Source: Haliotis cracherodii
Lineage: Eukaryota
Length of the DNA: 64,000 nt
Assembly: GCF_022045235.1 (NCBI RefSeq)
Contig: NW_027266268.1
Location: forward strand, 6,820,001-6,884,000
Reading direction: 5' to 3'
A program made the translations under genes and the position numbers. The notes beneath the pieces are model-generated. The model ran no database searches. It was not told the DNA's origin and worked only from the letters and a program-made list of their open reading frames with translations. Below, in pieces: positions 34,257 to 64,000 of this stretch; position 1 is the first letter of the stretch; each line of letters starts with the position of its first letter.

Positions 34257-34260
<4 letters not shown>

Positions 34261-35827: not shown

Positions 35828-35901
35828 AAGATTATAGTACCAATTATCCCTTTAAAACAACAGTGGCTTGAGTTAAGTACATACCTGCAGAAAATACTAT
35901 A

Positions 35902-36071: not shown

Positions 36072-36110
36072 TATTAAATTCATGTTGATGCTCTGCCTTC
36101 CCTTCAACAG

Positions 36111-42496: not shown

Positions 42497-42750
42497 GTTG
42501 AGTGAGTGAGTGAATATGGTTTTACGCCACTTTTAGCAATATTCCAGCAAGATCACGGCGGGGGACACGAGAAATGGGCTTCACACATTGTACCCTTGTG
42601 GGGAATCAAACCCTGGGCCCACTTGCACAAAGCGATCTTAGCGCTAAGATGATCATAACTCCCATACTTTAACATAGGCTTACAATAGTCGTAGCACTAA
42701 GATTGCTTTGTGCAAGTGGGCCCTGATCTTTGGCATGGTGAGCAAACTCA
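42497..42750 (-). mobile_element. SINE family B interrupted by a palindromic MITE (42616-42722, CTG TSD)
   Basis: SINE sequence resumes after the duplicated ctg; near-perfect TIR ggcccacttgcacaaagc. Confidence 0.88.
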
Positions 42751-44128: not shown

Positions 44129-44603
44129 ATCCCCCTGTGAAAGTTATATAAATATATATATTGTATACAGTTATCCCCACATGGATACAATGTATGAAGT
44201 CCTTTTCTGGAATGCCCCTAGTTATATTGCTGGAAACTTGCTAATGTGTGGTGTATAGAGTGTCTGCCTGGAGAGTGTGAGGTCGGTGATCCAATTCACT
44301 GGCCTTGTCATGCCAAAAGACACTTAAGGATGTGTCTCAGAGGTGTCTCCATGTTAATCTGTGGCATAGTATCTCAGTGGGCTTGGACAATTGAGCGTAC
44401 AAATGTGCATGCATATCGCTATTATAAGTAAAATAATCTTGAAACTGAAGACAGGACGCCTTATTATATTAAACCCAATTTTTCCTTGAATCACCTTAAA
44501 AAGGCATAAACCATACTCACTCACTCACTCACTCACTCACTCACTCACTCACTCATGTATTAATATTTGAAAGAAGTTTCTCACAAATGAAAATAATTTT
44601 CAG

Positions 44604-44945
44604 GATCTGACTGTGAGACGGACATAGATGACTGCCAGGTGGCGCCGTGTAAAAATGGTGGCACTTGTCAAGATGGCATCAACAGCTTCACCTGTGTCTG
44701 CGCTAGCGGTTTCACGGGTGCGACATGTTCTGTGGACATCGACGACTGTGTGTCAGGCCTGTGTTTATTTGGCTCTACGTGCGTGGACCTGGTCAATAGC
44801 TACACCTGTTTGTGCGCGGCCGGATACACAGGAAGATCATGTGACCACGATATTGACGAATGTGCGTCTGGACCCTGCTACAATGGTGGCACGTGTGCAG
44901 ATGGACGAGCTTCATACTCCTGTCAGTGTCCTTTGGGATTCACAG
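44604..44945 (+). CDS. Exon 4, EGF 6-8
   Basis: ttttcag| acceptor, ACAG|gtagga donor, phase 1-1, GSDCETDIDDCQVAPC. Confidence 0.95.
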
Positions 44946-45404
44946 GTAGGAGAATGTCAAATGTAATTTGTGTGAGGTCACAAGATAAAACACTCTATCC
45001 TATATTGATAAACATATATTGATTAGAAATATTCTTATATATATTTAGAAAATTTTGATAATATGGCTCCAATAAAAACAAACCCGTTTTTTATGTCACC
45101 TCGTTTGAAAGTTTTTATATACTAATTTCAAAAAGTTTACCCAAACATTCTGTGAGAGCTTCATACTCCTGTCAGTGTCCTTTGGGATTCACAGGTAGGA
45201 GAATGTCAAATGTAATTTGTGTGAGGTCACAAGATAAAACACTCTATCCTATATTGATAAACATATATTGATTAGAAATATTCTTATATATATTTAGAAA
45301 ATTTTGATAATATGGCTCCAATAAAAACAAACCCGTTTTTTATGTCACCTCGTTTGAAAGTTTTTATATACTAATTTCAAAAAGTTTACCCAAACATTCT
45401 GTGA
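44907..45404 (+). repeat. Exact 249-bp tandem duplication spanning the exon 4 donor
   Basis: 44907-45155 equals 45156-45404. Confidence 0.95.
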
Positions 45405-46061
45405 TAAACATTATACAAAATACCTCCAGCCCTATCTATGATCAATGTTGCGTGATGTTGGTTTTCTGCTAATCATCATTAGTTCTAATTAGATTTTCTT
45501 TAATAGCTTAAATGTTTTACCACAGCCTTGATTGATTATTTTACAAAGCTTAATGATAATGAAAGATGGTTTTATGAAGATTTTATGAGAGCTTCAAGGT
45601 AGACCACCAATTTGCACGCCAGATAAGATTTGAATGATCTAAATAATACTCAAAATCCTTTTATGAAACGTGATGTAAAGTTTAAGATGCTGTAATTTCA
45701 TGGCCCATCAGCAGAATGGCTCTTTTGCCTAATGTCTGCACTGTCTCAGTTAATTATTTGAATTTTATCCCGAAAATGAGTCTCGAGGCATTAAAAATTT
45801 CAGATTTTTTTTTTTAAGAAAATGATTTAGGCATGTGTGTTTATTAACTTTTTGATGGATGAGATTCACATGAAAGCATAAATGTCTGTTGGGATTATGT
45901 ATGGGATATATCGTGATTTTCTTTGTCTGGAGATACTTTGAGGCAATAAAATGATGTGAGGTTGGGTTGGTGGGGGATGTAAGTGGGGATGAGAATCTAA
46001 ATGAATTTAATAATTAAAACCTTTCATTTAAGGAGTTTTCACTGTGTATGTTTCTGACCAG

Positions 46062-46201
46062 GGCGCCGGTGTGAGGTGGACATTGATGACTGTCGTGGGC
46101 CGGTGCGGCATCTGTGCGTGAATGGTGCCACTTGTGATGACCGTGTCAACAACTACACCTGCATCTGTGGCCCCGGCTGGGAGGGACGCTACTGTCAACA
46201 G
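46062..46201 (+). CDS. Exon 5, EGF 9
   Basis: ctgaccag| acceptor, CAG|gtacct donor, phase 1-0, GRRCEVDIDDCRGPVRHLCVNGATC. Confidence 0.93.
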
Positions 46202-46204
46202 GTA

Positions 46205-46402
46205 CCTTATTTCCTCTATTAGAGGCCGGCTTCTATTAATATCACAATTTCACTATGACCACGAATGTCCTGAATCGTCACGATATGTAAATTGTAGGAA
46301 TTGATCGACCAGGCGTCTATTAGAGGCCCGGCTTCTATTTTTTGCACTGAACAATTGACCCTCCTTCTATAAGAGGCCAGGTGTCTAATAGAGGAAATAC
46401 GG
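46205..46402. mobile_element. MITE (ccgtatttcctctattaga TIR, TA TSD) inserted in the exon 5 donor
   Basis: TA at 46203-46204 and 46403-46404; inverted ends. Confidence 0.88.
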
Positions 46403-46660
46403 TATACATTTTGGTGTCACAATAATATTTGTCAAGTCAGTTGGAATTGAATTGAGGGTAAACAAATAAGATCGAATGCTAGGGTCATTTCAAAATTTTA
46501 AAACGTTCTAAAAGGGTGGAGTTTATGTACCAAATTTAAGAATTTAAGAATTCATACATTCTTGTTCACACAGATATTGATAATCTCCTCTGTGTATCCA
46601 TTAATCCATTTACTAAATGTGAGAATTGTCTCTCCATGTTCTGGTGTTCTGGTGTTCTAG

Positions 46661-46868
46661 GAGACTGATGAGTGCAAACCACGACCATGTGCTAATGGTG
46701 GTTTGTGTGTCGACGGCTTCAACAACTTTACCTGTAAATGCCCCAACAACTTCAAGGGAATCACGTGCAGCGACGATGTTGATGAGTGCAAGGGAGACAA
46801 CTCACCATGCCTCAACATGGGCAGATGTAACAACACGTTTGGTTCTTACACCTGCGACTGTGGGGAAG
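46661..46868 (+). CDS. Exon 6, EGF 10-11
   Basis: gttctag| acceptor, AAG|gtaggc donor, phase 0-1, ETDECKPRPC. Confidence 0.95.
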
Positions 46869-47612
46869 GTAGGCATCACTTGATGTATACTCAATGTTTG
46901 CTTTTCACTGTTTTTGAAGTTGGAGTAAATCTCCCTGTAGGTCTTCTGGTGTAGACCTGGTTGATTGAGTCTCATCGTACCCTAAATGCGTGGACATTGT
47001 ATCCTAAAGGCATGGAACGTTGCTCATAGTATTAATGACTGGATTGACTGGTCCAGACCCAATGACCTATAAATTTTCCATCTTTAGTGCCATCATCTAC
47101 TGGAAGCTTGTTTTTTTGGTCTTATTTTCTTGGAAGACAAAGGGAGATAATTTTGGCACTGTGGGGTAGCCTGGTGGTTAAAGCTTTTGCTCGTCTTATC
47201 AAAGACCCAGGTTCGATTCCGCACATGGGTACAATTTCTGGTGTCCTTCACCATGATATTGCTGGAATATTACTAAAAGCGGCGTAAAACTATACTCACT
47301 CATTCAGTTAATTTCGGGAAAGATAATATTATGCACGGAATTTCGCTAGGTCTCATAGACTGAACAAATTGGTGAAATATTAATGACAAATTTTAGTTTT
47401 AATAAGTTTTATAGCTGTTTTTTTTTAGTAACACATTAATTTCAGATTATTATAGTGTTTTTTTTCATATTTTGAAGAAAAATGGTATGCAGGTCTGTCA
47501 TCCAACAAATAGAAACTTAATGGCTATAGTTGGATCTCATTTAAGGACATTTGTTTATGTTGATTAGACCAAAGATCTATATATGTCTTTGATAAGACAC
47601 ATTACATTACAG

Positions 47613-47819
47613 GGTACTCTGGAAGCCATTGTGAGTCCGATATCAACGAATGTCAAGGTCTTCCATGTCACTTCAATGGGACGTGTGTGAACCTGATTGG
47701 TGGATATCGATGTGACTGTGTGGAGGGCTTCATGGGAAAGAACTGTGAGGCAGTCATACGACAGTGTCAGTTCGGCAACCCGTGTGGGGACAACGCTGTA
47801 TGTGTGGAGAAGCCTTCTG
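47613..47819 (+). CDS. Exon 7, EGF 12 and start of 13
   Basis: attacag| acceptor, G|gtaggt donor, phase 1-1, GYSGSHCESDINECQGLPC (not in ORF track). Confidence 0.93.
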
Positions 47820-49191
47820 GTAGGTTCAGAACATTGTCTTGATACATCCTAGACACCAAAAGATCTCTTCATGACAAAGAATATTATGGATAAGAACTTC
47901 TTTGTTATACATGCACAACTTTCCAGGGCTACCTCTTGCCCCTTCAGACCGCCTCCGTGGTCCGGTGGTAGAGCATCTGCCCCGAGAACGGAAGGTCGGG
48001 GGTTTTCACCTCATCTTTTGCCCCTTCATCAGGTGAAGGATAATATCCTGTGTCATGGTTACATCCAACTTCTAAGTGCCTGTAACAACTCAAAAAGTAT
48101 CCCTTGGTATTTTCTTGTGTGCTGCAGTCTGAATGGTCGAACATTGGTAAATGTGATCACTGAAATCTTTAAGACTTGCAAATGATTACTTTTCTGGATT
48201 ACATTCCATTTTCTTGATTAAAATTCATAATTTAATAAACATGCCATTCAGCTTGGCAAAACGGATACCACATTGATTATTGTTTGATCAGTATTTATCA
48301 GAATAACTTGGATTCGGTTGTTTCTTTCCACGTTCTGCTAACCTTGCGTTTTCAGTTGCTGTGATAGAATATGACTTCATCTGGTGCATTTTGATGTCGC
48401 ATATAGCATCCCAGCATGATGTCATGCCTAAACACAACTTAATTGTTAGCGTTCACGTACAGAGATATTGCCATACGTATGCTATTTTCAACATTAATAA
48501 GCAATATCATAAGTAATATGCAGGTTCCAAATGAAACTTCTGGCATCAAGTACTCAATAACAACTGTAAATCTAAAAACGCTTCATGTAAATCTCCATAA
48601 AGTGCCAGAATGTTGAGCGTTGTGCAAAAAATAGCTTATTCAGCTCTGCTCGTCTTATTGCACGAGGGTAGTTTCTGCTTCAGTGACCAATTCATTAGTG
48701 CACTCAGGTCAGGAAGCGCTGTTTTTCGGGGAATACTTCTGCCTTGTTTCTGCAGGGTGATTGGCTTCATACGACCAAGGCATTTGTATTGTAATCTAGG
48801 ATTTGATAAACGCTGGCTTCTAATCCAATTAAGCTGCCTATAAGTAATTTGTAACTCATCCTTAAGAAAAACACAGAAGCTTTCTCTTCAATTTGGCTCT
48901 AATGAACACATGACCGAAGTGAGTTTATTCTACGCAGCGCTTGGGTTGTTTTCTTCGCTGTCGAAGCTCTATAGGTATTGGTGTGACATCACGTACACTC
49001 AGAAATAATTTCATGCATGAATCAAAAACATCCAGAACCATCAACGTTCTGGCCCTATAATGTGCCCTGATGGCATGGATCACACAATAGCTGGTTCACT
49101 CCCCATACACTCTCTCCAAAAGGTTTCAACACCATTTATTATTTCACTGGATATTTGTATATTGAAGACATTAATCTACTTTCCGTTTTAG

Positions 49192-49332
49192 GCGGATACA
49201 CGTGTTTTTGTAAACCTGGTTACCATGGCAACAGATGCGAAACTGAGATCAACGAGTGTTCCTCAACTCCTTGTCGTAACGGAGGCACTTGCCGTGACGG
49301 CATCAACTTCTATAACTGTTCCTGTGTGGAAG
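49192..49332 (+). CDS. Exon 8, end of EGF 13 and EGF 14
   Basis: ccgttttag| acceptor, AAG|gtatgc donor, phase 1-1. Confidence 0.95.
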
Positions 49333-49532
49333 GTATGCATCTTTTAGCTCAAGATATTAACAGCAATCATAGAGACTGAGCTGCATGCTCTGAACCATTT
49401 AGTGTATATACTACTCAACTTTCGATAGGGATAATCAGATATATCATTCTATTTAAATATACACATGACATGTGAGGATGAGATTTGTGTATCATGGAGA
49501 GAAAAAAATATATCCCTATCAAAAATGGAGTA

Positions 49533-49905
49533 CCGTATTCGACATAATAAGTGCTCAGGGCACTCTCAAAATTAGAAATAGGGGGCTCTTATTAGAAAGG
49601 TAAATTTCGTGGTTCATGCGGACAGCCTGAAATGTTTATATACGACAGATATATTTTTCAAGAATTTAATTGCCCATAATTAAGGGTTCATATACCACAC
49701 GAGTGCGTATTATACGCGAATAAAAAAGTCTTTTACATTTAATTCTGGAAAAATATATCTGTCGTACATAAACATTTCATTCTGTCACTATTAAACACAA
49801 AATTTATCTTTCAACTCTGTTTTTTTTCACCAACATAATATTCTAATAAGAGTCCCCTATTTCTAATTTTGAGAGCGCCCTGGGCGCTTATTACGTCGAA
49901 TACGG
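49533..49905. mobile_element. MITE family M1, rearranged copy made of two left arms
   Basis: Left-end sequence occurs forward from 49533 and inverted up to 49905. Confidence 0.85.
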
Positions 49906-50082
49906 TCATGGTGAAATGGCAGATTGAGAATTCAATTTAAAATGGAATTAATAAATGTTTGGGGTGGCTTGTTCTGTATTGGATTTTGTATGCCATTGTT
50001 GTGTGTTTGAAAAAGTTATGTTTCAAGGTTTTATTATTTCTGAAACTGTTCAAGTCACTGATTATCTTCCCTTGTTTCCTAG

Positions 50083-50296
50083 GTTACGAAGGGAAGAACT
50101 GTGAAGTGGACATCAATGAATGTGCAAGTCAGCCATGTTTGAATAAGGGCGTGTGTTATGAACCTGCTCTCAACACCTTCGGCTGTAAGTGTCGGCCAGG
50201 CTTCACTGGCATCAGTTGTGATGTGAACGTAGATGACTGCATCTCCAACCCATGCCAGCACTACCAGGTGTGTGTGGATAGAGTCAACCACTACAG
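50083..50296 (+). CDS. Exon 9, EGF 15-16
   Basis: tttcctag| acceptor, AG|gtaggt donor, phase 1-2. Confidence 0.95.
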
Positions 50297-50945
50297 GTAG
50301 GTACTCGATCCGTCTCATCACCAACCTCACTACAGACAGGTAGACAGGATCAGTGTGGCAATAAGACTAAGATATCTTCGTTCATTGCCTAATTACCAGA
50401 ATTGTAGCAGTACACAAGCATGTGGCTGGTGCCATGTGTTTGCACTCAGCAGATTGTTAGTGAGAGTTATCTCCCCTGTCTGTGTTTGGCTGAGGCCCAT
50501 TTAAGGATGGGGCCCGTTTAGGGTTAAGCTATACCACAATCATTGTAGAAAAAAGAGTAGGTGGTCCATTACTCACCACAATTTGATGTAGAGAATCGTG
50601 TCCCTTTCTTGTGCCAGGATCTTTGATTATGACCCCTCGTCTGTCAGCACTATGCCAATGCTCACAGTTGCTCCAAAGTGATAATCCTCTTTGACGTGCA
50701 TCATTTTTTTCCGACACTGAAATGACACATTCTAACACAGCTGAAAAAGGGGTGTGAAACCAAACTCATTGCCTCCTGTACACACCCCTACTGCCACACC
50801 TATAAGGAGTCTGCGGCACATATTGCTTCAGGCTACCAAGGTCACATGAATAAACACAGACTTAACTTTATTTTTCTTCCATCATTTGAGATTGAACTAA
50901 TTATGTGGATGTTTAAATTAATGACATTCAAATATTGTGTTCCAG

Positions 50946-51412
50946 CTGCGAGTGCGCCCCAGGCATGACAGGAGATGTGTGTAACGTCCATATTGATGAT
51001 TGCCATAGCAACCCATGTAACAACCACGGCACCTGCATTGACGTCGGCAACATGTACGTCTGTCAGTGTCCATACCCATATACAGGCAGGAACTGTGACA
51101 CTGATGTAGATCCCTGCTTCCCTAACCCTTGTCTCCATGGCGGCACCTGTTTCCTTGACAACAGCATTGTCGAGGGCTACAGATGTACCTGTACGGGTGG
51201 TTTCATTGGCAAGCGTTGTCAAGGGGATGTGTATGACTGCCGGTCCAACCCCTGTCAGAGCGGTGGTACATGTGTTGAGAACACGGATGGACATGCAGGC
51301 TTCAAATGTCGGTGTTCGAGAGAGTTTGCAGGGACGTACTGTGAACTTGAATCCAACGACTGCATGTCCACGCCATGTCAGAACGGAGGAAGTTGCACAC
51401 CAAACCAAAATG
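50946..51412 (+). CDS. Exon 10, EGF 17-20
   Basis: gttccag| acceptor, G|gtaatt donor, phase 2-1. Confidence 0.95.
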
Positions 51413-51487
51413 GTAATTATGTTTTCTAAATAATCATAATAATAATAATTATATTCTAACTCTGCTCTACTTGATACAAGTGACACA

Positions 51488-51790
51488 GACTGCCTCCATG
51501 GTCTTGTTGATAGAGTGTCTGCCCAGAGATCAGAAGATTGGTGGTTGATCCCCAGACCATCACACTAAAAGATGTTAAAAGATGGTACTTATAACCCTGC
51601 CTGGTGCCAGGCATTTAGGGCGTAGAAAATCTGAACCAGTCGGTTTAGAGTATACTGTGTCTGAGTGGGGTATTCATTTTAAACTGTGGCATGGTATAGC
51701 AGTGGGCTAGCACTATAAAACCTCATTAGTCTGGACTAGTAGAAGCACACACACAGACATGCAAACAGACACGCAAACAGACACACACCC
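51488..51790 (+). mobile_element. Old tRNA-derived SINE, Meta-domain-like
   Basis: Degenerate tRNA head, aaagatgttaaaagatggtactt...ccctgcctgg segment, (CA)-rich tail; relatives at 44245-44480 and 60830-61050(-). Confidence 0.65.
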
Positions 51791-51967
51791 ATGCACAGAC
51801 ACAAACATACATGCACACACATATACGCTTATCACTATTTAAGTGCAATAATCTTGAACATGACATTAAATCGCATTGATGAAAATCAAACATTAAAATA
51901 ATGGAATCGCACACCCTAATGGTAGACTTCTTCTGAACAATCTTCTTCTTCATATCTACATGAACAG

Positions 51968-52228
51968 GCTACACGTGTCAATGCCCTTTAACATACACGG
52001 GTCAGGACTGTCGCCAAGACGTCGACGAGTGTGACCAATCAGCAACTCTGTGTCAGAATGGTGGTCGCTGCTTCAATCTGATTGGTGGATATAGCTGTGT
52101 GTGCAGCCCCTATTGGACAGGCCCCAACTGCCAGGTGGACATCAAGGAGTGTCAGCTGAGTCCCTGCCGGAACAATGCAACCTGCATGGAGGTGGTGGGT
52201 GGGAGCCCCCGGTGTGTCTGTCCTCCAG
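51968..52228 (+). CDS. Exon 11, EGF 21-22
   Basis: gaacag| acceptor, CAG|gtgagt donor, phase 1-1. Confidence 0.95.
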
Positions 52229-52308
52229 GTGAGTTTGGTGTGGGTCCTAGTCTGTGGTTTGAATCTGTGGTTGCAATGAGGTGGTGGATTTGAGCATTAG
52301 TGAGTTTG

Positions 52309-52564
52309 TTTGTTGTTTAACGCCACACTCAGCAATATTAAAACTGTATGACAGCGGTCTGTAAATAATCGAGTCTGGACCAGACAATGCAGTGATTAAT
52401 ATCATGAGCATCGATCCGGGCAATTGGGAGAGATGACATGCATAAACCAAGTCAGCGAGCCTGACCATCCGATCCCGTTAGTCGCCTCTTACGACAAGCA
52501 TAGTCGCCTTTAATGGCAAGCATGGGTTGCTGAAAACTTATTCTACCCCGGATCTTCATGAGCC
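52309..52564 (-). mobile_element. SINE-like family A, full length
   Basis: 11-bp TSD tagtgagtttg. Confidence 0.92.
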
Positions 52565-52777
52565 TAGTGAGTTTGATGTGAATTCAAGTACACTGCTTGG
52601 TTATCAAGCAAGTAATTTTTGTTTGTCTTCATATTTCTTGCTTGGGATAAATCATCTTAAAATGTTTTGGAAATAGATCTTTCATCTTATGAACTCATGA
52701 ATTTTCAGCTATGTTAGATGTATATTATTTAATAGTATTCCAACTGTGTGTCATTGTGTGCTTTGTTAATGATTCAG

Positions 52778-52900
52778 GTTTGACTGGTGCTACTTGTGAG
52801 TCAAGGGACTACGGGTGTGAGATCTCACCGTGTCGGTCTGGGGGGACTTGTGTGCAGCAGGGGGATGCCTACATCTGTCAGTGTTACCCCGGATACACAG
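52778..52900 (+). CDS. Exon 12, EGF 23
   Basis: gattcag| acceptor, ACAG|gtaagt donor, phase 1-1. Confidence 0.95.
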
Positions 52901-53213
52901 GTAAGTGTTGGGGGGTGAGAGTGTGGGGATAACACCTTCAGGTAAGACTGTTCAAGGAGAGGGGGAAATAACAGGGTGTTGCCTATGTCTGGCAGACTCT
53001 AACGTAAATGCCTTCCACTTAACTTTGGTGTGAGAATGGTGTTAATATCCTGCAGTCCAATATTCACTTCACAACATTCTCACTTCTGGAATTTTTAGGC
53101 ATAAGATGAAATTGTGCATTTAAACTGTAGAAAACCCTTGAAACATGTTACCCTCTTTGAAATATCAAAACATTTGTTTTTAATTTAACAATTTGTTTGT
53201 CTTGTTTTATCAG

Positions 53214-53444
53214 GTGCAAACTGTCAGACCAACATAGACGAGTGCAGTTATTTCCCCTGCAAGAATGGTGGCACATGCACCGATGCTAGCAATGGCTTCC
53301 GCTGTCAGTGTGCTCCCAACTTCGCCGGGCTGACCTGTACGGAGCTGATCAGCCCCTGTGACCCCAACCCCTGCCAGCATGGGGGCACCTGTCAGGAGGC
53401 GGGGCAGGGGGTCTTCCAGTGCTCATGTCCGCAGGGCTACACAG
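53214..53444 (+). CDS. Exon 13, EGF 24-25
   Basis: ttttatcag| acceptor, ACAG|gtgagg donor, phase 1-1, GANCQTNIDECSYFPC. Confidence 0.95.
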
Positions 53445-53978
53445 GTGAGGGAAGCTAATCTGCATCAGAGCTGGAGATGAGCTGTGTATTTGCATAAAAT
53501 AGGCATTATAGAAACTGAAATACGCAGACAAAAAAAATGCTAGCGTATCAAATATGCAGCAGAAACTATAACCGCACTATTGAAATAAAATTAATGTGTA
53601 TATTACGAGGGGCGTTCAATAAGTTTTGCAACTTCAATATAAGACCAAGTCGCAGAATATCTTTTGCACTTTTATTTTTCAATATATTAAACCTCCATTC
53701 ACCTCAATTCACCTCAATACACTTACTGGGTGGGTGATTTAACTGTACAGCGCAGACTTAGCCCCCAGTAAAAAACATCAACTCAGTAAAAACAAGTGCA
53801 CCTACATCAACGATTTGTAAGAACACCTGAATGAGTGGTACACCTGCATCTGTAGCACACATGTGTCATTAGAAATATTGCTGAAGTACTTCAGCGAAGA
53901 TTTATGTATTCCCAAGAGAATGGAAAGCTGCTTGTGAGTGTGATGCACTGTCTAATCAAGTGACTTGTTACCCTCCAG

Positions 53979-54095
53979 GCACTCATTGTGAGACAGACAT
54001 TGATGAGTGTGAGTTGGCCAGACCCTGCCAGAACAATGCCACCTGTGTCAACCTCGTCAACAACTTCAGGTGTGAATGTATGCCAGGATATACAG
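53979..54095 (+). CDS. Exon 14, EGF 26
   Basis: cctccag| acceptor, ACAG|gtagga donor, phase 1-1, GTHCETDIDECELARPC. Confidence 0.95.
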
Positions 54096-54340
54096 GTAGG
54101 ATTGGCTAAGACTGGCTGTGTTAGTGTGCATTCATACACCGGACATGCAGTTGCTCAGTCCATCAGTATCCTTACTACTAAAATAAGTTAAGAATCACCG
54201 GAGTCTTTCATATTACTACAGTACAATAGTTTTTTGGGTGATTGGGTGATCCTTAACTTTTTTTAGTTGTATAGTTTGTCTGCACTGAAGCTGGGCATAT
54301 ATTTATTATCCAGGCATACTAGATACAGCTTCAGTAATTC

Positions 54341-54846
54341 CATTTCCCAAGGCAAGGGAGTTGACTGACAATAAAAGCCCAGTTTCCACCCTTGCTGAAC
54401 TAGGCTGAAATAATGGAGTTATCTTTTGGCTGGACTAACGAGTCTATGCATAGTCCAATCAAAATCACATAATGAAGTTGACGTTCGGTTTTAAACTGCC
54501 CTACAGATTTCGGTCGATTGCAGGTTTTACAAAATTAACAGATATTTCCCAAATCTTTTCATGTTTTTGATCAAGGTGCTCACCTGATTTGATGCATTTT
54601 GGGAAGTAAAATATGTTTTTTCATAATATAGATTTTGATTATCGATGAGGTTGTCTTGACTGGGCATCGTCATTTTGTTTACACAATTGCAAGTGTATTG
54701 AGAGGTGGAATCTGATTGGTCAATAGGAGGGATATAGAGGTGACATAACTCATAATAGCCACTGGTGGCTCTACAATCGAGCCAAGAAATTCCGGCCTGG
54801 AAACTGGACTTTTCTAGTCAGTAAACACCCTGGCCTCAGGAAGATG
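54341..54846 (+). mobile_element. Second copy of the TIR element at 43506-44128
   Basis: Colinear similarity with the same termini. Confidence 0.82.
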
Positions 54847-55014
54847 CAACAATGCTGAGTAACATCAGGTTGTTATTGCATGATTTGACAGCTTCTGATT
54901 CTGTTAATTGCCCGTTTTATACTTTATTTCCATTTTCACAAGTATTACGTCCATAACAGCTACAGTTGATATTTTACGAGTGCTTCACCTCTTACTGTTC
55001 CTCCACTTCTCAAG

Positions 55015-55128
55015 GTATCGCCTGTAGCGTGGACATCGATGAGTGTGCTGGCTCACCCTGTGGTATGGGAAGCAGCTGTGTGGACCTCGTTAACAAATAC
55101 AGGTGTGACTGTCGCCCAGGTATGACAG
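55015..55128 (+). CDS. Exon 15, EGF 27
   Basis: cttctcaag| acceptor, ACAG|gtaagt donor, phase 1-1. Confidence 0.93.
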
Positions 55129-55232
55129 GTAAGTACATACACATAACTGTCTCTTAAAAATTTTACTAGCTCGTCATTTAGAAATTAAGCTGAAAACAAA
55201 ACACAAGTGACGAAGTTTTGATATCTCTGCAG

Positions 55233-55528
55233 GTTTGAACTGTACGACGGACATCAAAGAATGTGAGTCCACCCCTTGTCTCCACGGTGGTCAGTGCTCA
55301 GAGCCACAGATCGGCCAGTTCTCGTGTGTCTGTCCGAGTGGGGTGTCAGGGGCCACCTGTGAGATGGTCAATACGGCCAGTTTTGATGGTTTGAGTTATG
55401 TCCAACTGCAGCCAGACTTTTCGGCGACCGGGAGGCGCCGGCGTCGGAGGGAAGTGGTCAACGTGACAGGGATGAGGTTCACCTTTACGACAACTGTGCC
55501 CACTGGCCTCATCATGGTGGTGATGGGG
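55233..55528 (+). CDS. Exon 16, EGF 28 and start of LamG1 (contains RRRRRR)
   Basis: ctctgcag| acceptor, GGG|gtgagt donor, phase 1-0, ASFDGLSYVQL LamG first strand. Confidence 0.93.
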
Positions 55529-56195
55529 GTGAGTCCAGATTCTGTCTCACGGTCCGCAGTTTTATTTCATTTATGTATTTGTTGTTTGACAGTGCACTCA
55601 GTAATATTACAGCAATCGATCTGGACCAGACTATCCAGTGATAGATATTATGAGCAGCAATCCATGTCAATGGGGCACTATCAACCAAGTCACTAAGTCT
55701 AACCCCCCCGATCCATTAACTTGCCTTGTACAACTAACATTGGTTCTTGGGAACCTGTTCTAAGCCAGAATCCCAAAGGGGTCTCAATATTAGATGTAGA
55801 GGATATATGGCTAATCTTGTCAAATAACATGTCTATATCTAAGGTGACCTGATAAATTTGTATTTTCATGACTGGTGTGACACATCCACAAGTATAATAT
55901 AACAATGTCACAAGGTGAGGCTATCATGTGATTTCACAAGAAAAAACAAATGTTCTATTTATCTGGACAATCCTCTTCTCTCCATTTTTAAACTTTACAC
56001 ACTTTGTAACCTTATAACACTTTGAAACCTCCAAAGAAGATAAAGAACACCCGATTTCTTCACAAGAGTATGGTTAATCTGTCATGGCTGGTGGGTATTG
56101 CCTCACACAACCTTCATGTTGTAGGTATTCTTGAACTTGTTTTGAATAGTATATGAAAAGTAATTTTCATGTCTGTTCTCTGAACAATTGACCAG

Positions 56196-56546
56196 GCGGA
56201 CCAAGAAGGTCGACCCCAACACTTCAGCCTGGAATTGTACCAAACTGCATTCTGGGTAACTGAGAATCGTGGTCTGGAGACGTCACAGAAGAGCATCCCG
56301 CTTGGCCAGGCCATCAGCGGCATCTACAGCCACACCGTGGACATCATCATCATGCCCAGCTTCACCAGCGTCACCCTGGACCCCAACAACTGCAACAACA
56401 TACCTTCCTGCTATGTGTCCTTCACCTACAACCAGAGCATGGCCTTCACCTTTGAACGGCAGATGTACCTCGGAGGGATACCTAGCGTGACTCCATACAT
56501 CCGCAGCAAACTCAAGACAGTGCAGGGATTTGCTGGTTGTCTGGGG
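56196..56546 (+). CDS. Exon 17, LamG1 core
   Basis: gaccag| acceptor, GGG|gtaagt donor, phase 0-0, MYLGGIP...GFAGCLG. Confidence 0.9.
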
Positions 56547-57294
56547 GTAAGTACAGATGTGTTTTGTTTGAATGGGCTCCTGTCTACCAAGCGAGTTGAC
56601 AGGCTTTGGCCGAGCTCTCATATGACGCGAATAGACGACAATAGACATAGCATTCGTCAGCATTTAATGATAGCAAAACGTGTCCATAATTAACATCAGC
56701 AGAACAGTTTTTTATCATTTTAATCAGCCGAACGTTCAAGGTGAAGAAGTGTCTCTTGAAATAATTTTGTAATTTAAGAAGAATATGCAAGTGCACTAGT
56801 CTTTTACCAGGGGAGGGTGTGTGTGTGACCCTCCCCTGTGATAATATTTTGCAAAAGCATTTTATATTTTATCATAAAATGTCCATTGATCATGCCCACC
56901 ATAAATATGTTTCTTATTTTTTATGACGCTCCTCTAGAGACTTTCATATTCTTTAGTGACACCCTCCACCCATTCAATAAATGTGCACCCCACGAGCACA
57001 GGTGTGGTGCTGACAAACCTAGAAACAATTTGGGCAAACCAGGATTTGAAACCATGATCACAGGATTCTGGTTTGCCTAAGGGAGGAAACTCCTCAGATG
57101 ACTGGCCTTGTCGTTGAATAAGATGTGTTTGAACCAGTACTGTTTGTGGAGCATCTTCCAGTTGATCAGTGTGTTTGAATTCTGTTTGAAGCAGCATTCA
57201 ACCTAATTGAACTAATATAAGTGGTCCCATTGAGTTCGTTATAACCGTAGTTTACTGTAGATCTTAACATTCCCATATTTCTGATTGCTTCCAG

Positions 57295-57645
57295 AACCTG
57301 ATGATCAACAGCAAGACCATGAGCCTGCTTCCCCCAGGGAACTCCTCCTCCTCCTCCTCCCCCTCCCCCACCATCTCCAGCCAGTTCATGAAGCGCCCCA
57401 CCCCGGGATGTTCGGCCCACGAGCCATGCAGCACCAACCTGTGTCGCAACGGTGGGACCTGTGTTGATCTGTGGACCAGGAAGTACTGCCAGTGTCGGCC
57501 GGGATTTGCCGGGGAGACATGCGAGTTCCAGAACATGGCACACTTCTCTGCGGGCTCCATGCTGCACTACAGTGGCCTGGTGGAGATCAGGGAACTCTCC
57601 TTCTGGCTCAGCGCCACCAACTCTTCAGGGATGCTGCTGTACACT
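57295..57645 (+). CDS. Exon 18, end of LamG1, Ser/Pro linker, EGF 29, start of LamG2
   Basis: cttccag| acceptor, ACT|gtaaga donor, phase 0-0. Confidence 0.92.
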
Positions 57646-57744
57646 GTAAGACAATCCTAGCAGTATCACATGATTGTTGGGGAGAGCAATGGTAATCTGA
57701 TGAGGCTCTGAACAGGTCAGCTTGCTGGGGGGCAACTTGGACCA

Positions 57745-58199
57745 AAAATGTTGAGTGTTCTTGTGCTGGAGATGACAAATGCAGACACTCTTAAGTATGG
57801 AGTGCTTATCTGCTGTATAGGATTAATTTGCCCCAAATGTTGAGTGTTCTTGTGCTGTAGGTGACAAGTGCTGCCCCTAAATATGGAGTACTTGTGTGCT
57901 GTATAGGATTAATTTGCCCCAAAATGTTGAGTGTTCGTGTGCTGTAGGTGGCTAGTATTGCCCTGAATTCTAGAAGTCTTGAAATCAACGTGTGCTGAAG
58001 GCAAATAATGTTCTGAGTGTTGTTTGCTGCAGGTGATTAAATGTTACTCCAAAATGTTGAGTGTATGCTTTAGGTGACCAATGTTGTCCTGAAATCTTGA
58101 GTGTTTGCTGTAGGTGACTAATGCAGGCCCTTACTAAGGAGTCTTAGGTGCTATATGAGACTAATATTGCCCTACATGTCAGTTGTTTGTGTGCTGTAG
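57745..58199 (+). repeat. Degenerate repeat (period about 43 bp) of the exon 19 acceptor and exon start
   Basis: gctgtag|gtgac-like units with AG ending at 57860, 57947, 58032, 58073, 58113; true site ends at 58199. Confidence 0.8.
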
Positions 58200-58362
58200 G
58201 TGACTAATGATGCCCTGGCCATGATGATTGACCGTGGGCAGATCCGGCTGCACATTGTGTCTGGGAACACAGACACTGTCAGCCGAGTGGGCCAGAATGT
58301 GAACAATGGAGACTGGTACAAGGTCAGCCTTGTCCTCACTGGTGGGAGATACAGAATTCAAG
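58200..58362 (+). CDS. Exon 19, LamG2
   Basis: gtgctgtag| acceptor, AAG|gtaagt donor, phase 0-1, VNNGDWYKV. Confidence 0.9.
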
Positions 58363-58694
58363 GTAAGTGGCTCTCCAGAAATGGTTACCACTGTTAATGC
58401 TGACATTTACATTACTATTATTTTGTCAGGAACCTGTTGAACACATTATCTTGTTTTGATGGCAGCTGCCCTGTATAAAAGCTTTATTTGAATGACAATT
58501 AACTGCAATAAAGCTTCAACAATCTGTAATTTTTCATTTAATCAAATAAAGAATTTACATATTTGAAATGAAATTATTTATTTACCATCTGTAACTACAC
58601 AATCTGCAAGTACACTCACTCACGCACAATCGGCAACTACACTCTCTTATCATCTGTGTCTATTGCACTGATATTCCTCTTGGTCCTCCGTCAG

Positions 58695-58848
58695 TGTCGA
58701 CGCCAGACACAGGTGTGTTTGGGTCAGGTAGCGGCACGGTCAGCAGCTACATCCTTGTCACCATGCCGCTGTTCATCGGGAAGCTGCATGACCACCCCGC
58801 CATCGACAAGTGGAGACTTAGACCCAGCAAACTACCCACCTTCGAGGG
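58695..58848 (+). CDS. Exon 20, LamG2
   Basis: ccgtcag| acceptor, GG|gtacgt donor, phase 1-2, PLFIGKL. Confidence 0.88.
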
Positions 58849-58904
58849 GTACGTGACAGTAGATCTAAACAATTAGTGTAATTGGGGTCAATTATAACCT
58901 GCTC

Positions 58905-59142
58905 AGGAAAATACTATGTGGAAAATAGTATTTAATGTTAGGAAAATGATATGTTATATGAGGAAAATAATATGTAATATGAGGAAAATAATATGTAATA
59001 TGAGGAAAATAATATGTAATATAGAGGAAAATAATATGTAATATGAGGAAAATAGATTGTAATATGAGGGAAATATTATTTAATGTCAGGACAGTAGATT
59101 GTAACATGAGGAAAATAGTATGTAATATGATGGAAATAGTAT
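58905..59142. repeat. 21-bp AT-rich minisatellite (atatgaggaaaataatatgta)
   Basis: Direct reading. Confidence 0.9.
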
Positions 59143-59294
59143 TTGATTTAATTTAATATTTAAGATCAGTGAAAAAATCATCTTTAAATTGTTTTTCTTC
59201 ATCATATTTATCGGACCACCAACCAAATAATACTGTGTATCTGGTCATGGTGCTTGTGGGGTCATGTATGAAGAAATTCATTTTTCTTGTCCAG

Positions 59295-59521
59295 GTTTGA
59301 AGGCTGCCTGCGGGACCTGACAATCAACTACAACCCTATTGACCTCAAGTCCAATGTTGCTTCCATATTTGGCAACGATCCTCCTCCCCCCACCCCTGGA
59401 TGTAGGCGGGAGGAAACGTGTAGCCCCTCCCCCTGCCAGAATGAGGGCATGTGTGTTTCAGGGTGGGAGGGGCACACCTGTCAGTGTCCGGCCAACTACC
59501 ACGGACAGAATTGTACAGATG
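59295..59521 (+). CDS. Exon 21, end of LamG2 and EGF 30
   Basis: ttgtccag| acceptor, G|gtaggt donor, phase 2-1, FEGCLRDLTIN...CSPSPCQNEGMC. Confidence 0.93.
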
Positions 59522-59570
59522 GTAGGTACAGCATGCTATGCCTGGTGACTACTTCAGCAAAATCAAAGTA

Positions 59571-59911
59571 CCGTATTCGACGCAATAAGCGCCCATGGCG
59601 CTCTCAAAATTAGAAATAGGGGGCTCTTATAAGAATATTATTTTGGTAACAAAAAGTTCAAAGATTGTAAATTTCGTGGTTTATGCTGACAGCCTGAAAT
59701 GTTTATACGACAGATATATTTTTCCAGAATTTAATTGCCCATAATTAAGGCTGCATATAACACACGAGTGCGTAATATACACTAATAAACAAGTCATGTG
59801 TACATTGATCAATCAGAAGGGGTGCTAATTGGGATTGTTCACCAACCACTATATTAGCAAATATCGCTGTGGGTGCCTATTAGAGCGGGGCGCTTAATAC
59901 GTCGAACACGG
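59571..59911 (+). mobile_element. MITE family M1
   Basis: TIRs with TA TSD. Confidence 0.9.
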
Positions 59912-61193
59912 TATGCTCAACGTCACTATTGAGGGGTCATGCAGATAATAAGGGATAAAAGTATTAAAAAATGGTGCATTTTCAGCTTATAAGAGTGCAG
60001 TTCAGTTGCATCTGCAATAAGCAGGGATGAGAATCTGCAGATCCGCAAATTGTAGTGACCACAAATTTGTTAAAATCTGATGGCTTCCCCCATAAACAGC
60101 TGCAAATTATGGACCACGCTCCATTGCAAAGATGTTGCAGCTGAAAAGGAAAATATCCATTCTCATCCCTCAATAGACCATTTTATACCCATGCTGACTG
60201 TTACTTCTCATGTATTGCACGTGCATGGGCTAAACCACTGATTGTGATCACGCGTGTATTTTGGGTAGCTTTTTCCATAACCCTCAATCTTGCACTTTTC
60301 GCTGTTTTTAATAGTCATCCATTTTTCAAGTTTCAAAAAGCATCCAATCTGTGTGACATTGGCATTTACTACATGTTCTTCAACTGTTAATCACATTATC
60401 AACCTACTCAGACCTATTGACACTTGTTGGCATATGTTCATGTATGTCACCCTGTATACCCAGGTGACACTTCATTAATGGTTCTGAGTATTATTACTGT
60501 GGTCGGTATGCTGTTATTTCTAAGAAGCCAGAATTCCAATACTTGTGGTCAAGTTGATAATGGTCAAGATGAACACTACTGTTTTTCAAGGGTAAGTGAG
60601 TAGGATTTTGTGCCACGTATAGCATTATTCAAGCCTGATCATGGTGGGGCTTTCAAGAATGAACTTCACACATTGCAACCAAGTAGGGAATCGAACCTGG
60701 GTTTTCCATGTGACAGGGTAATACTTTAATCACTTGGCTACTCAACTGCCAGATATGGCTCAACTTTAGGATATGAGGTGAGGTAAGGTGAAATAGGGTT
60801 TAATGTCGCATTCAAGATTATTGCATTTATATAGCAACATGCATGCAAGTGTGTGTCCGTGTGTGTGTCTATTTGTACTAGTCTTGACTAATGTCAGTTT
60901 TATAGTGCTAACCCACTGAGATACCCTGCTGCAGTTTAACATGGGTATCCCACTCAGACACAGTATACTGGCTCCGAGCTGACCAGTCCTTGTTTAATCA
61001 CTTTTATGCTTAGTGCCACAGAAGGTTACAAGAATTACCATTTTTTAACATTTATTCAATATAGTGCATCAAGTGAAATTACATTCTACAGACTGATTGG
61101 ATACCAAGTTCTGTCACCATGACGATATGGTCTGTATAGAATAAGACTGTTTGAAGACGAGACAGTACTATGACTATGATCTCTCTGCTCCAG

Positions 61194-61415
61194 TATCCTC
61201 GTCGACCTTCAACGGTAACGCCAGCTACATCCACGTCACCATCAACAGGTCCATGTTTCCATTTGGAGATACAGGCAGCTTCGATTTCAAGACCAGACAG
61301 GCTACGGCCACGCTCGTCTACCATGAGCTTTTTTACAGCAATGGGTTGCTTAGCAACCTCATAGAGTACCGCACTTACAAGGAGAAACTCCAGATTAGCA
61401 TCACAGGAACAGGGA
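61194..61415 (+). CDS. Exon 22, start of LamG3
   Basis: ctgctccag| acceptor, A|gtgagt donor, phase 1-1, TFNGNASYI...FDFKTRQ. Confidence 0.9.
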
Positions 61416-61855
61416 GTGAGTTTGAAAATCTTACAACTTCATATAATTCTGAGTAAACTTCTATCCTAGATAAAATGGAAATATTCCAGTCAGCATTGCA
61501 AAGCTTATGTACAGGAACAAAATAAAATAATGAAATAAGTCAAGAGAAATTAGATTTTATTATTGTATAATGCAAGGTTTTCTGCCACATTTCTGTATAA
61601 TTGTCCTGGAAGCAGTCACTTGTCACTCATATTGACTCCATGTTGGGTTGGATAATTTACTGTATTGACTTGAGTCGCTGTACCTGAAAGTGGTATTCTC
61701 CAAACCTAAGCCTCCGACTTCGTCCTCAGTCAGTGTTGTGTTTTGTCCATCAAAACAGGTATTGACCTCATGTATAGTCTGTATTTGTATTTTATAGCAC
61801 TGACACTGTTATTTCATTGCACGCCTCAGTACAACTGGAAGTCAGTGTTTAAAAT

Positions 61856-62019
61856 AGTGAGTGAGTATGGTTTTACGCCCCTTTTAGCAATATTCCAGCA
61901 ATATCACGGCGGGGGACACCAGAAATGGGCTTCACACATTGTACCCATGCTGGGAATTGAACCCGGGTCTTCGGCGTGACGAGTAAACGCTTAAACCACT
62001 AGGCTACCCGACTGCCCCT
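61856..62019 (-). mobile_element. tRNA-derived SINE family B, full length
   Basis: TSD gtgtttaaaata; near-consensus sequence. Confidence 0.92.
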
Positions 62020-62609
62020 GTGTTTAAAATATAAAAAGATGCCCGGCTGCCATCAGGACCCACAGACTTAGGATGCCGGAGGCCCTGACTGAACTCTTCA
62101 GGCCCCCATTTTAAAAACTGAAGCTTATTGTGATAAATATACATGTTAACTTACTGCAGGCCATAAGGACCCATACAAATTTGAAACTATGGGCCCGACA
62201 CAAGATCTCCCTGCTACGGGCCTATGGGCAGGCGCTTATTTCGAACACTGCTTGTAGTTATTGGAAACATTGGGAATGTAAAGAATATTTGAGTCAAACG
62301 GTTGACATTAGACCAAAGTGCTGGTAAGGATTCTGTTGGGACCAACGAGTTACATCTTCATAAATGGTGGCACGTGGTCCTGTGTTCAGTGCACAGATCA
62401 CAATTCAGGCGAAGCTAATCAATGTTGTCATGGAGAGTAGTTGGATGGGTGACTCGACCTTCTAGCGCCTCACAGCTAGCTTGGTTTGTATACTCCCCAG
62501 GGAGCTGAGAATCAAAATCAGGTGCACACTGATCCATTCACCAGGGTAATATTGTAGCCTTTTCAGTATGCTTTAGGGTGTGGATTTCAATTACATTTTC
62601 TTTTTTCAG

Positions 62610-62807
62610 GATTTTCAGAACCTGTGACGTTTTCCACTACTGTTGCTGATGGCATCTGGCACAGCGTGTATTGGCGAAGACAAGACAACCAGCTGAGGAT
62701 TACTATGGATACAGAGACAAGGATGATACAGACCAACTTTAACCCGTACGACAACAGACTTAACACCACAATCATGCTGTACCTGGGAGCCAAGCCGTTC
62801 AGACCAG
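62610..62807 (+). CDS. Exon 23, LamG3
   Basis: ttttttcag| acceptor, CAG|gtgagg donor, phase 1-1, VADGIWHSV...LYLGAKP. Confidence 0.9.
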
Positions 62808-63648
62808 GTGAGGTACTCTGGCCTACAGGGTTAACACCAGTATCATGGTGTACCTGGGAGCCAAGCTGTTCAGACCAGGTGAGGTACTCCGGCCTACAGG
62901 GTTAACACCAGTATCATGGTGTACCTGGGAGGCAAGCTGTTCAGACCAGGTTAGGTACTCTGGCCTACAGGGTTAACACCACTACTGTAGTGTACCTGGG
63001 AGGCAAGCTGTTCAGACCAGGTGAGGTACTCTGGCCTACAGGGTTAACACCAGTATCATGGTGTACCTGGGAGGCAAGCTGTTCAGACCAGGTGAGGTAC
63101 TCTGGCCTACAGGGTTAACACCAGTATCATGGTGTACCTGGGAGGCAAGCTGTTCAGACCAGGTGAGGTACTCTGGCCTACAGGGTTAACACCAGTATCA
63201 TGGTGTACCTGGGAGCCAAGCCGTTCAGACCAGGTGAGGTACTCTGGCCTACAGGGTTAACACCAGTATCATGGTGTACCTGGGAGGCAAGCCGTTCAGA
63301 CCAGGTGAGGTACTCTGGCCTACAGGGTTAACACCAGTATCATGGTGTACCTGGGAGGCAAGCCGTTCAGACCAGGTGAGGTACTCTGGCCTACAGGGAG
63401 CCAAGCCGTTCAGACCAGGTGAGGTACTCTGGCCTACAGGGAGCCAAGCCGTTCAGACCAGGTGAGGTAATCTGGCCTACAGGGAGCCAAGCCGTTCAGA
63501 CCAGGTGAGGTACTCTGGCCTACAGGGAGCCAAGCTGTTCAGACCAGGTGAGGTTTTCTGGCCTACAGGGTTAACACCACTATCATGGTGTACCTTGGAG
63601 CCAAGCCGATCAGACCAGGTCAGGCATCGCCCGCTGGCCTACAGGGTT
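62760..63648 (+). repeat. 71-bp (and 43-bp deletion-variant) tandem repeat of the exon 23 3' end plus donor, 14 units
   Basis: accag|gt with GT starting at 62808, 62879, 62950, 63021, 63092, 63163, 63234, 63305, 63376, 63419, 63462, 63505, 63548, 63619. Confidence 0.96.
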
Positions 63649-64000
63649 ACATGTCATCAGGTTACATACACACTTCTCATTGTGAAGAGTTTGTGACCTT
63701 GTTCAGGTCCAAAGTACAGGTAAGCACCTGATTGGTGTTAAGATGGGTTGTGGTTAGGTACAGAGGCCTAAATGTCCGTTCAAGATCATACATTAATAAG
63801 CTTTCTCTTTCCCTTCAGCTGCATTACTATCACAACTCTCCTAAGCCAGTCTATCAGAGCAGGCTTTCATAAGCGCATTTGTATGCAAACGGGTGGAAAG
63901 TCTGGTCACGTGATAAGCTTGTGGCAGTGGTATAAAGCCAAGTCATCCTTGCACCTGAGTGTGTTCAATTAGTTAGCTTTATTAAATTGTTGACATGTTC

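What the first reader, a model, noticed from the sequence alone, without database searches (positions are those of the whole stretch)
44907..63648. Recurrent splice-junction-seeded tandem repeats in one gene
Seen: three independent arrays each straddle an exon boundary and extend into the intron with the coding copy left intact: exon 4 donor x2 (identical), exon 23 donor x14 (slightly diverged) and exon 19 acceptor x6 or more (degenerate). They look like young, intermediate and old stages. Every extension to a decoy that I traced gives a frameshift or stop. Inference: either exon edges are amplification hotspots in this genome, or decoy arrays act as a copy-number-tunable control of productive splicing through NMD or truncated secreted ectodomains. 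The neutral alternative is a high background duplication rate filtered by selection.
Basis: partly seen in the sequence, partly recalled or inferred. Interest (0 to 1): 0.7.

Follow-up and report, generated by a model that had tools for sequence, protein, structure and literature searches.

The report
Splice-junction "mirage" repeats in mollusc Crumbs
Three splice junctions of a mollusc Crumbs-like polarity gene have been copied head-to-tail into the neighbouring introns, a known repeat type seen at about 1 in 40 junctions of control genes here and likely a tolerated by-product of DNA duplication rather than a splicing switch.

Summary
The three arrays are real. They lie in a 26-exon, 2,625-aa Crumbs-like gene: exon 4 donor 249 bp x2, exon 19 acceptor ~43 bp x~10 (degenerate), exon 23 donor 71/43 bp x14. 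Every decoy tested gives a premature stop. This anatomy is known: amphioxus 'mirages', human F7 IVS7; the scan has found it repeatedly in this genome and others. In 30 control genes 45 of 1,804 junctions carry such copies, so three in one gene is ordinary (P about 0.13). Edge enrichment is real but modest: 107 of 398 minisatellites span or abut a junction, against 47 (gene-wide null) or 78 (within-intron null). Donor-spanning arrays are enriched (28 vs 10.6/17.5); acceptor-spanning ones are not (10 vs 10.6/17.6), while arrays stopping just short of the AG pile up (46 vs 13/21). That fits a splicing-fidelity filter. The exon 4 duplicate is not fixed. One RNA contig of a relative uses the real sites; rare decoy use was not testable. 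Regulatory decoys are unsupported.

The parts
7428..64000 (+). Crumbs-like gene, exons 1-23 in the window (exons 24-26 follow in L009 at 168-2102, 2914-3441, 4616-4869): signal peptide, EGF repeats, three laminin G domains, EGF repeats, transmembrane segment, tail ending ERLI; 2,625 aa
   Evidence: 8,000-nt RNA-like contig of organism B
44604..44945 (+). Exon 4 (three EGF repeats), real donor after 44945
44907..45404 (+). Perfect 249-bp tandem duplication across the exon 4 donor; decoy donor after 45194, use would stop at aa 351; single-copy form seen in runs X1, X3 and X7
57742..58219 (+). Degenerate ~43-bp array across the exon 19 acceptor; strongest decoy exon starts at 57861, 57948, 58033, 58074, 58114; real exon starts 58200 (last copy)
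58200..58362 (+). Exon 19 (second laminin G domain)
62610..62807 (+). Exon 23 (third laminin G domain), real donor after 62807
62760..63396 (+). Exon 23 donor array, 71-bp part: nine units including the real one (48-50 nt exon end plus 21 nt intron start)
63397..63568 (+). Exon 23 donor array, four 43-bp units (the 71-bp unit lacking 28 nt of its exon-derived part)
63569..63650 (+). Most diverged, terminal unit of the exon 23 array (donor CAG|GTCAGG); shares with the exon of organisms B and C a T where this exon has A (62770)

Best explanation
The three arrays are tandem copies of the gene's own exon-intron junctions ('mirage' minisatellites) that likely arose by ordinary local duplication and are likely tolerated because the spliceosome would keep using the copy that stays attached to the full exon. 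Shown: the anatomy, the intact coding copy, premature stops at all decoys tested, a background of about 1 such junction in 40, a 1.4-2.3x excess of minisatellites at exon edges, and a donor/acceptor asymmetry. Inferred: (1) a short tandem duplication lands on a junction (3-nt TTA microhomology at the exon 23 unit ends, none at exon 4, both read by eye); (2) slippage or unequal exchange expands and homogenises it; (3) donor copies are mostly harmless because the most upstream donor is the real one, whereas copies that place an AG upstream of the real acceptor are purged more often; (4) edge-anchored arrays persist and grow more than interior ones, probably because deletions cannot remove them without touching the splice signal; (5) any leaky decoy transcripts would be nonsense-mediated decay substrates, which is clean-up and not regulation.
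For: 45 of 1,804 control junctions positive, P(>=3 of 50) = 0.13, one myosin gene has 6 of 30. Donor-spanning 28, acceptor-spanning 10 (binomial p = 0.005); spanning:abutting is 28:23 at donors and 10:46 at acceptors (Fisher p = 1e-4). Edge enrichment rises with copy number: 1.3x (<3 copies), 2.5x (3-10), 3.2x (>=10). Decoy GT identity (0.93, 0.95) equals that of flanking positions (0.87-0.98) over 31 donor arrays. The exon 4 duplicate is missing from the spanning contigs of two other organism A runs and organism B. Organism B carries the exon 19 and exon 23 arrays in DNA, yet its 8,000-nt RNA-like contig has exons 19+20 at the real length (317 nt) and joins exon 23 to 24 at the real donor, skipping 1,360 nt. 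Same behaviour is published for F7 IVS7 (PMC1557585) and amphioxus mirages (PMC3087553, PMC3902484).
Against: RNA evidence is assembled contigs at depth 5-10 from related organisms, which drop rare forms. Two short RNA-like contigs lie in the exon 23 array (X14: 79 nt, depth 3, reading through the donor; X12: 73 nt, depth 2.8), and could be decoy-extended exon as well as pre-mRNA or DNA. GT identity exceeds the whole-window mean in 21 of 26 untied arrays (Wilcoxon p = 0.016), although not the adjacent positions. Human 6-16 and CBS do use their nearest pseudo-donors (PMC1557585 introduction). The small class of near-perfect 2-copy duplications is also 1.6-2x enriched at edges (8 of 35), and homogeneous arrays are no less enriched than diverged ones, which leaves room for a seeding bias. 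Step 4 was not tested. P-values treat arrays as independent although they cluster by gene.
Confidence: 0.78

Rival explanations
1. Exon edges are true mutational hotspots for tandem duplication in this genome (for example through low-complexity polypyrimidine tracts, recombination or transcription-linked breaks); selection then only trims the acceptor-spanning class. This changes the origin, not the neutrality, of the three arrays.
For: Sharp peak within -5..+10 nt of junctions: 40 vs 13.5 (gene-wide) and 22.7 (within-intron), falling to about 1x by 50-200 nt. Replicated in 322 further introns. Survives a partial interspersed-repeat mask in the dynein set (59 vs 31.2). Arrays per intron are nearly flat (0.32-0.46) for collapsed intron lengths up to 1.3 kb. 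Near-perfect 2-copy duplications 8 vs 3.9/5.0.
Against: All arrays with <3 copies: 23 vs 17.4/21.2. Spanning arrays pooled are at 1.1x under the within-intron null (p = 0.26). Standing arrays mix birth and survival.
Confidence: 0.3
2. The decoy arrays are a copy-number-tunable control of productive Crumbs splicing, through nonsense-mediated decay or a secreted ectodomain cut at aa ~1,750 (exon 23) or ~1,400 (exon 19).
For: Exon 23 decoys score as high as the real donor (92nd percentile) and five exon 19 decoys are strong. The exon 23 and exon 19 arrays are shared with organism B, and an array-derived read-through contig appears in organism C. Human CRB1-C is a putative secreted Crumbs form (PMC7335077), and tandem-repeat length can shift splicing in humans (PMC10078293).
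Against: Equivalent arrays sit in dynein and myosin motor domains, where no such product makes sense. No decoy joint was listed in two RNA-like runs. Decoy GT not specially kept. Exon 4 duplicate not fixed. All stops lie far upstream of later junctions, so transcripts would likely be degraded. Truncations fall inside laminin G domains.
Confidence: 0.05
3. The edge enrichment is mostly an artefact of the null model: young transposon sequence fills intron interiors and has had little time to seed arrays, and a few repeat-rich genes with array-filled introns drive the counts.
For: Enrichment drops from 2.3x to 1.4x when intron identity is held fixed. Counts are uneven: 10 of 30 genes have no junction copy, one has 6. 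The 25-nt cut-off was chosen after seeing the first dynein set.
Against: Within-intron excess remains (108 vs 78.3, 0 of 50,000 simulations; replication set 49 vs 34.9, p = 0.001). The donor/acceptor asymmetry needs no null for intron interiors.
Confidence: 0.25
4. The exon 4 duplicate alone is an assembly error rather than a private allele.
For: Perfect 249-bp copy with no microhomology; not seen in contigs of X1, X3 or X7.
Against: Two-copy junction duplications of 96-100% identity occur in control genes too (C56a 25734, C67_u 24776, C23b_u 36181). Contigs drop rare alleles.
Confidence: 0.15

Closest known systems
Amphioxus 'mirage' minisatellites (Adh3, globins BflGb6/BflGb9, troponin C, PGBD5); PMC3087553 and PMC3902484, passages read; the original Adh3 paper (PMC117041) was not held
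   Same: Tandem copies of an exon-intron boundary, at donor or acceptor side, many keeping GT/AG; coding copy intact; edge units more diverged; regular splicing reported as undisturbed.
   Different: Mollusc host; the 249-bp unit is longer than the 10-160 bp reported; here a background rate and a donor/acceptor asymmetry were measured. Somatic instability not tested.
Human F7 intron 7 37-bp VNTR, with 6-16, CBS intron 13, lamin B2 and PDGF intron 4 (PMC1557585; abstract, introduction and passages read)
   Same: First monomer spans the donor; identical pseudo-donors follow; the most upstream site is used in F7.
   Different: Exon 23 unit carries ~48 exonic nt (F7: 4) and an internal acceptor-like AG; two unit lengths; this gene also has an acceptor-side array. 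6-16 and CBS use their two nearest pseudo-sites, which was not testable here.
Internal tandem repeats at exon-intron boundaries of human segmental-duplication genes (PMC2812944; passages read)
   Same: Variable repeats at exon-intron boundaries.
   Different: There they create new introns or alternative splicing in young paralogues; here no new intron or in-frame product is seen.
Crumbs proteins: mollusc 'protein crumbs homolog 1-like' P0003 (Dreissena), P0006 (Mercenaria); P0015 (Pecten), P0047 (Patella)
   Same: EGF and laminin G ectodomain, transmembrane segment, G-x-Y-x-P motif; ERLI end in P0003, P0006, P0015; 48-55% identity over exon 24.
   Different: No tree was built; database names of the closest hits are mixed (crumbs, notch-like, fibropellin); P0047 ends EILI.

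Membership tests
Mirage minisatellites | Head-to-tail units that span an exon-intron boundary, coding copy at the exon-side end | tested here: met
Mirage minisatellites | Occur at 5' and 3' boundaries; many copies keep GT or AG | tested here: met
   13 of 13 exon 23 decoys keep GT; 5 strong AG decoys at exon 19
Mirage minisatellites | Unit length about 10-160 bp | tested here: inconclusive
   43 and 71 bp fit; the 249-bp two-copy duplication is longer (range from PMC3087553)
Mirage minisatellites | Regular splicing undisturbed | tested here: inconclusive
   Real sites used in one contig of organism B; rare forms invisible in contigs
Mirage minisatellites | Allelic length variation | tested here: inconclusive
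   Exon 4 differs between the window and three runs; copy number of the longer arrays cannot be read from short contigs
Mirage minisatellites | Homogenised interior units, diverged boundary units | tested here: met
   inner units share changes; terminal unit is the most diverged
Mirage minisatellites | Somatic instability (Adh3) | not testable with these tools
   no raw reads from single animals
F7 IVS7-type donor VNTR | Real donor followed by identical pseudo-donors | tested here: met
   11 of 13 decoys have the same 9-mer
F7 IVS7-type donor VNTR | Only the most upstream donor is used; pseudo-sites functional when it is mutated | tested here: inconclusive
   Upstream donor used in X12; X14 joint has only 22 nt on the exon side and cannot tell copies apart; mutation test not possible
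Crumbs | EGF plus laminin G ectodomain | tested here: met
   Pfam EGF and Laminin_G_2 hits above cut-off (10 exons scanned)
Crumbs | Single transmembrane segment, short tail with FERM-binding G-x-Y motif and C-terminal ERLI (motif meanings recalled) | tested here: met
   translation; same tail in named mollusc hits
Crumbs | Orthology by phylogeny | not tested
   no tree built
Regulated unproductive splicing (AS-NMD) | Measurable, regulated use of the unproductive site | tested here: inconclusive
   no decoy joint listed in 2 RNA-like runs of low depth
Regulated unproductive splicing (AS-NMD) | Decoy signal conserved above neutral flanks | tested here: not met
   GT no better kept than adjacent bases; exon 4 decoy not fixed

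The most novel reading that the evidence does not exclude
Exon edges in this genome breed minisatellites, and at Crumbs exon 23 the 13 strong decoy donors act as an allele-variable dial that diverts transcripts to decay or to a secreted ectodomain ending at aa ~1,750, so repeat copy number would tune epithelial-polarity signalling.
Probability: 0.05. Interest if true: 0.75.

Novelty: new member of a known kind. Interest (0 to 1): 0.33.

Why it matters
The three arrays are ordinary examples of a known repeat type. The useful result is the measurement around them: about 1 junction in 40 carries such copies, minisatellites crowd exon edges, and arrays that copy a donor are about three times as common as arrays that copy an acceptor AG, while many stop just short of the AG. 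If that holds genome-wide, this genome offers hundreds to thousands of natural splice-site competition experiments and a population-genetic read-out of 5' versus 3' site choice. Six literature searches turned up no genome-wide count of this kind and no mollusc case; the library is open-access only, so this is weak evidence of absence. These arrays can also mislead gene prediction and short-read splice mapping.

Tried and rejected
No run on record as RNA holds the stretch; the RNA labels of X12 and X14 are guesses, although their contigs are spliced. The first lay was swamped by interspersed repeats, so its joint table said nothing about this gene. Copy number of the exon 23 array could not be read from contig depth. 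The exon 4 junction in organism B RNA says nothing about decoy choice, because B lacks the duplicate. TRF alone misses the exon 19 junction overlap (finds only 57745-57950), so a separate junction-copy scan was written. A whole-window GT-retention test looked positive (p = 0.016) but is explained by window edges falling outside short units; per-position values show no GT peak. Testing enrichment within the Crumbs gene alone is uninformative (2 vs 0.9 spanning, p = 0.23). The exon 23 unit has no match elsewhere in the genome (lower bound), so a transposon origin was rejected. The 21-bp array at 58915 is not junction-seeded. Alignment A2 mixed non-homologous segments and was discarded. Dropped before counting: 1 of 17 dynein loci (not fetched), myosin m1a (4 exons aligned), the C12 myosin cluster and the C9 locus (not fetched), one m27 array overlapping a doubtful first exon (dropped in the TRF counts, still among the 45 positives). 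The pooled transposon-masked null and a microhomology-density test were written but not run. PMC12783039 (earthworm metallothionein) was not relevant.
Full report
Host gene. The window is G000:C5:6820001-6884000 in a 1.18-Gb animal genome. Exons read from the sequence close into one 2,625-aa ORF over 26 exons, 23 in the window and three in the next stretch. Pfam finds EGF and laminin G domains. The tail reads G-R-Y-K-P...ERLI, as in mollusc proteins named crumbs homolog 1-like; that these motifs define Crumbs is recalled. The best-identity named hits are limpet and bivalve (48-55%). Earlier scan notes call this genome abalone; no tool of mine checked that label. An 8,000-nt RNA-like contig of related organism B matches the model: 910 nt between exons 4 and 10 and 317 nt for exons 19+20, both as predicted, and a 1,360-nt skip from exon 23 to 24.

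The three arrays. Exon 4 donor: an exact 249-bp tandem duplication, 44907-45404. Exon 23 donor: nine 71-bp units, four 43-bp units and a diverged last unit, 14 donors in all, 11 of the 13 decoys with the real 9-mer. Exon 19 acceptor: about ten ~43-bp degenerate units, five with strong AG signals upstream of the real one. Every decoy tested ends in a premature stop: aa 351, aa 1,401-1,428, aa 1,750-1,753.

Age and polymorphism. In two other organism A runs and in organism B, one contig runs through the exon 4 region with a single copy (the same contig covers 44836, ending 71 nt later, and resumes at 45156 in X1 and X3). The duplicate is therefore not fixed. The exon 19 array region (57905-58990) is covered by a B contig, and the exon 23 array appears in A and B DNA, with a variant unit shared by A, B and a short contig of C. 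So both predate the A/B split. The high identity of exon 23 units reflects homogenisation as much as youth; the terminal unit keeps a base that B and C have in the exon. Only 'exon 4 is youngest' is established.

Is three in a gene unusual? I wrote a profile-based spliced aligner. With six distant mollusc proteins it placed both ends of 18 of 18 predicted Crumbs introns on true sites, skipping one exon; its splice matrix came from the same gene, so the check is partly circular. I annotated 16 of 17 dynein heavy chain loci (581 introns, plus 133 upstream in five of them) and 14 myosin loci (189 introns); junction calls were stable between passes. A junction-copy scan was positive at 45 of 1,804 junctions (32 of 902 donors, 13 of 902 acceptors), with 0-1 hits per 902 in swap controls; a few positives are single distant matches. 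Expected in a 50-junction gene: 1.25; P(>=3) = 0.13. One myosin gene has 6 of 30. The recurrence in Crumbs is ordinary for this genome.

Are exon edges hotspots? Arrays (TRF, period >=10) were collapsed to one founder unit and compared with uniform placement across all introns (gene-wide) or within their own intron. Pooled, 398 arrays in 903 introns: spanning or within 25 nt of a junction 107 vs 47.2 and 77.9; donor-spanning 28 vs 10.6 and 17.5; acceptor-spanning 10 vs 10.6 and 17.6; donor-abutting 23 vs 13.0 and 21.4; acceptor-abutting 46 vs 13.0 and 21.4. With the later-dropped m27 array included, the edge total reached 0 of 50,000 simulations under both nulls, whereas spanning arrays alone gave p = 0.0002 and 0.26. 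The cut-offs were set on the first dynein set; the untouched replication set gave 49 vs 17.3 and 34.9 (p = 0.001). A partial interspersed-repeat mask on the first set left 59 vs 31.2; the pooled version could not be run. Arrays cluster by gene, so these p-values are too small by an unknown factor, two gene families are not the genome, and missed exons make the counts conservative. Enrichment is 1.3x for <3 copies and 3.2x for >=10 copies, which points to survival and growth rather than birth; near-perfect two-copy cases (8 of 35, 1.6-2x) and the lack of a rise with divergence point the other way.

The asymmetry. Donor-spanning arrays outnumber acceptor-spanning ones 28 to 10 (p = 0.005), and spanning:abutting is 28:23 at donors against 10:46 at acceptors (Fisher p = 1e-4). 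Many acceptor-side arrays copy the pyrimidine tract and stop 1-25 nt short of the AG. I infer a selection filter: the real donor is the first one met, as in the 5'-3' scanning shown for F7, while a copied AG lies upstream of the real one and competes; PMC1557585 notes that scanning is widely accepted for 3' sites. A mutational bias in pyrimidine tracts could produce the abutting excess without selection and was not tested. The filter is leaky: exon 19 keeps five strong upstream AGs, and B still enters at the real one.

Regulation. Against: equal arrays in motor-domain genes; decoy GT identity (0.93, 0.95) like its neighbours (0.87-0.98) over 31 arrays; an unfixed exon 4 decoy; no decoy joint in X12 or X14. 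Open: both RNA-like runs are shallow contigs of other species; the X14 joint cannot tell identical copies apart; and two short contigs (depth 3 and 2.8) lie in the array. Pre-mRNA or DNA summed over 14 copies would explain these, but so would a decoy-extended exon. A putative secreted CRB1-C exists in humans (PMC7335077), so the idea is not absurd, only unsupported.

Prior knowledge. Tandem duplications of exon-intron boundaries are published as 'mirages' in amphioxus Adh3, globin, troponin C and PGBD5 genes, without aberrant mRNAs (PMC3087553; PMC3902484; passages only), and as donor-spanning minisatellites in human F7, 6-16, CBS, lamin B2 and PDGF (PMC1557585, part 1 of 6 and passages). PMC2812944, PMC10078293, PMC7335077 and PMC12783039 were read as passages. 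The Adh3 paper was not held. No supplements were opened. This scan has reported the same thing at six other loci of this genome and in at least seven notes from other genomes; those notes are unchecked and count only as leads.

Verdict. Real feature, new member of a known kind, most likely neutral and tolerated (0.78). The measured edge enrichment and donor/acceptor asymmetry are the part worth a genome-wide follow-up. Interest 0.33.

Noticed in passing
window 62808-63568: Each exon 23 unit also has an acceptor-like AG 21 nt after its donor (41st-80th percentile of control acceptors), so the array holds 50-nt and 22-nt pseudo-exons, both frameshifting; none seen in RNA contigs.
   Followed up: partly
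window 55433-55450: RRRRRR in the first laminin G region, a furin-type cleavage motif (recalled); the ectodomain might be shed by proteolysis without any decoy splicing.
   Followed up: no
window 57342-57369: CTC microsatellite encoding a poly-Ser/Pro linker in exon 18; the organism B contig has a 6-nt gap in this exon.
   Followed up: no
L009:168-2102: Exon 24 is 1,935 nt of uninterrupted EGF repeats, while the other 25 exons are 64-528 nt.
   Followed up: no
window 7492-32044: Intron 1 is 24.5 kb and holds 16 minisatellite clusters, including 17 bp x138 at 16292-18644.
   Followed up: no
window 58915-59142: 21-bp AT-rich array starting 66 nt after the exon 20 donor; not derived from the junction.
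   Followed up: yes
G000:C12:64580000-64960000 (L126-L140): About 15 tandem myosin-head genes spaced 15-40 kb apart, on both strands; the segments aligned resemble muscle myosin II.
   Followed up: no
G000:C67:725001-755000 (L207-L209): Myosin gene with junction copies at 6 of 30 junctions and several introns built almost wholly of arrays (collapsed length 51-194 bp); a stronger case than Crumbs.
   Followed up: partly
30 control genes: Arrays per intron stay at 0.32-0.46 for collapsed intron lengths from under 150 bp to 1.3 kb, so array number follows intron count more than intron length.
   Followed up: partly
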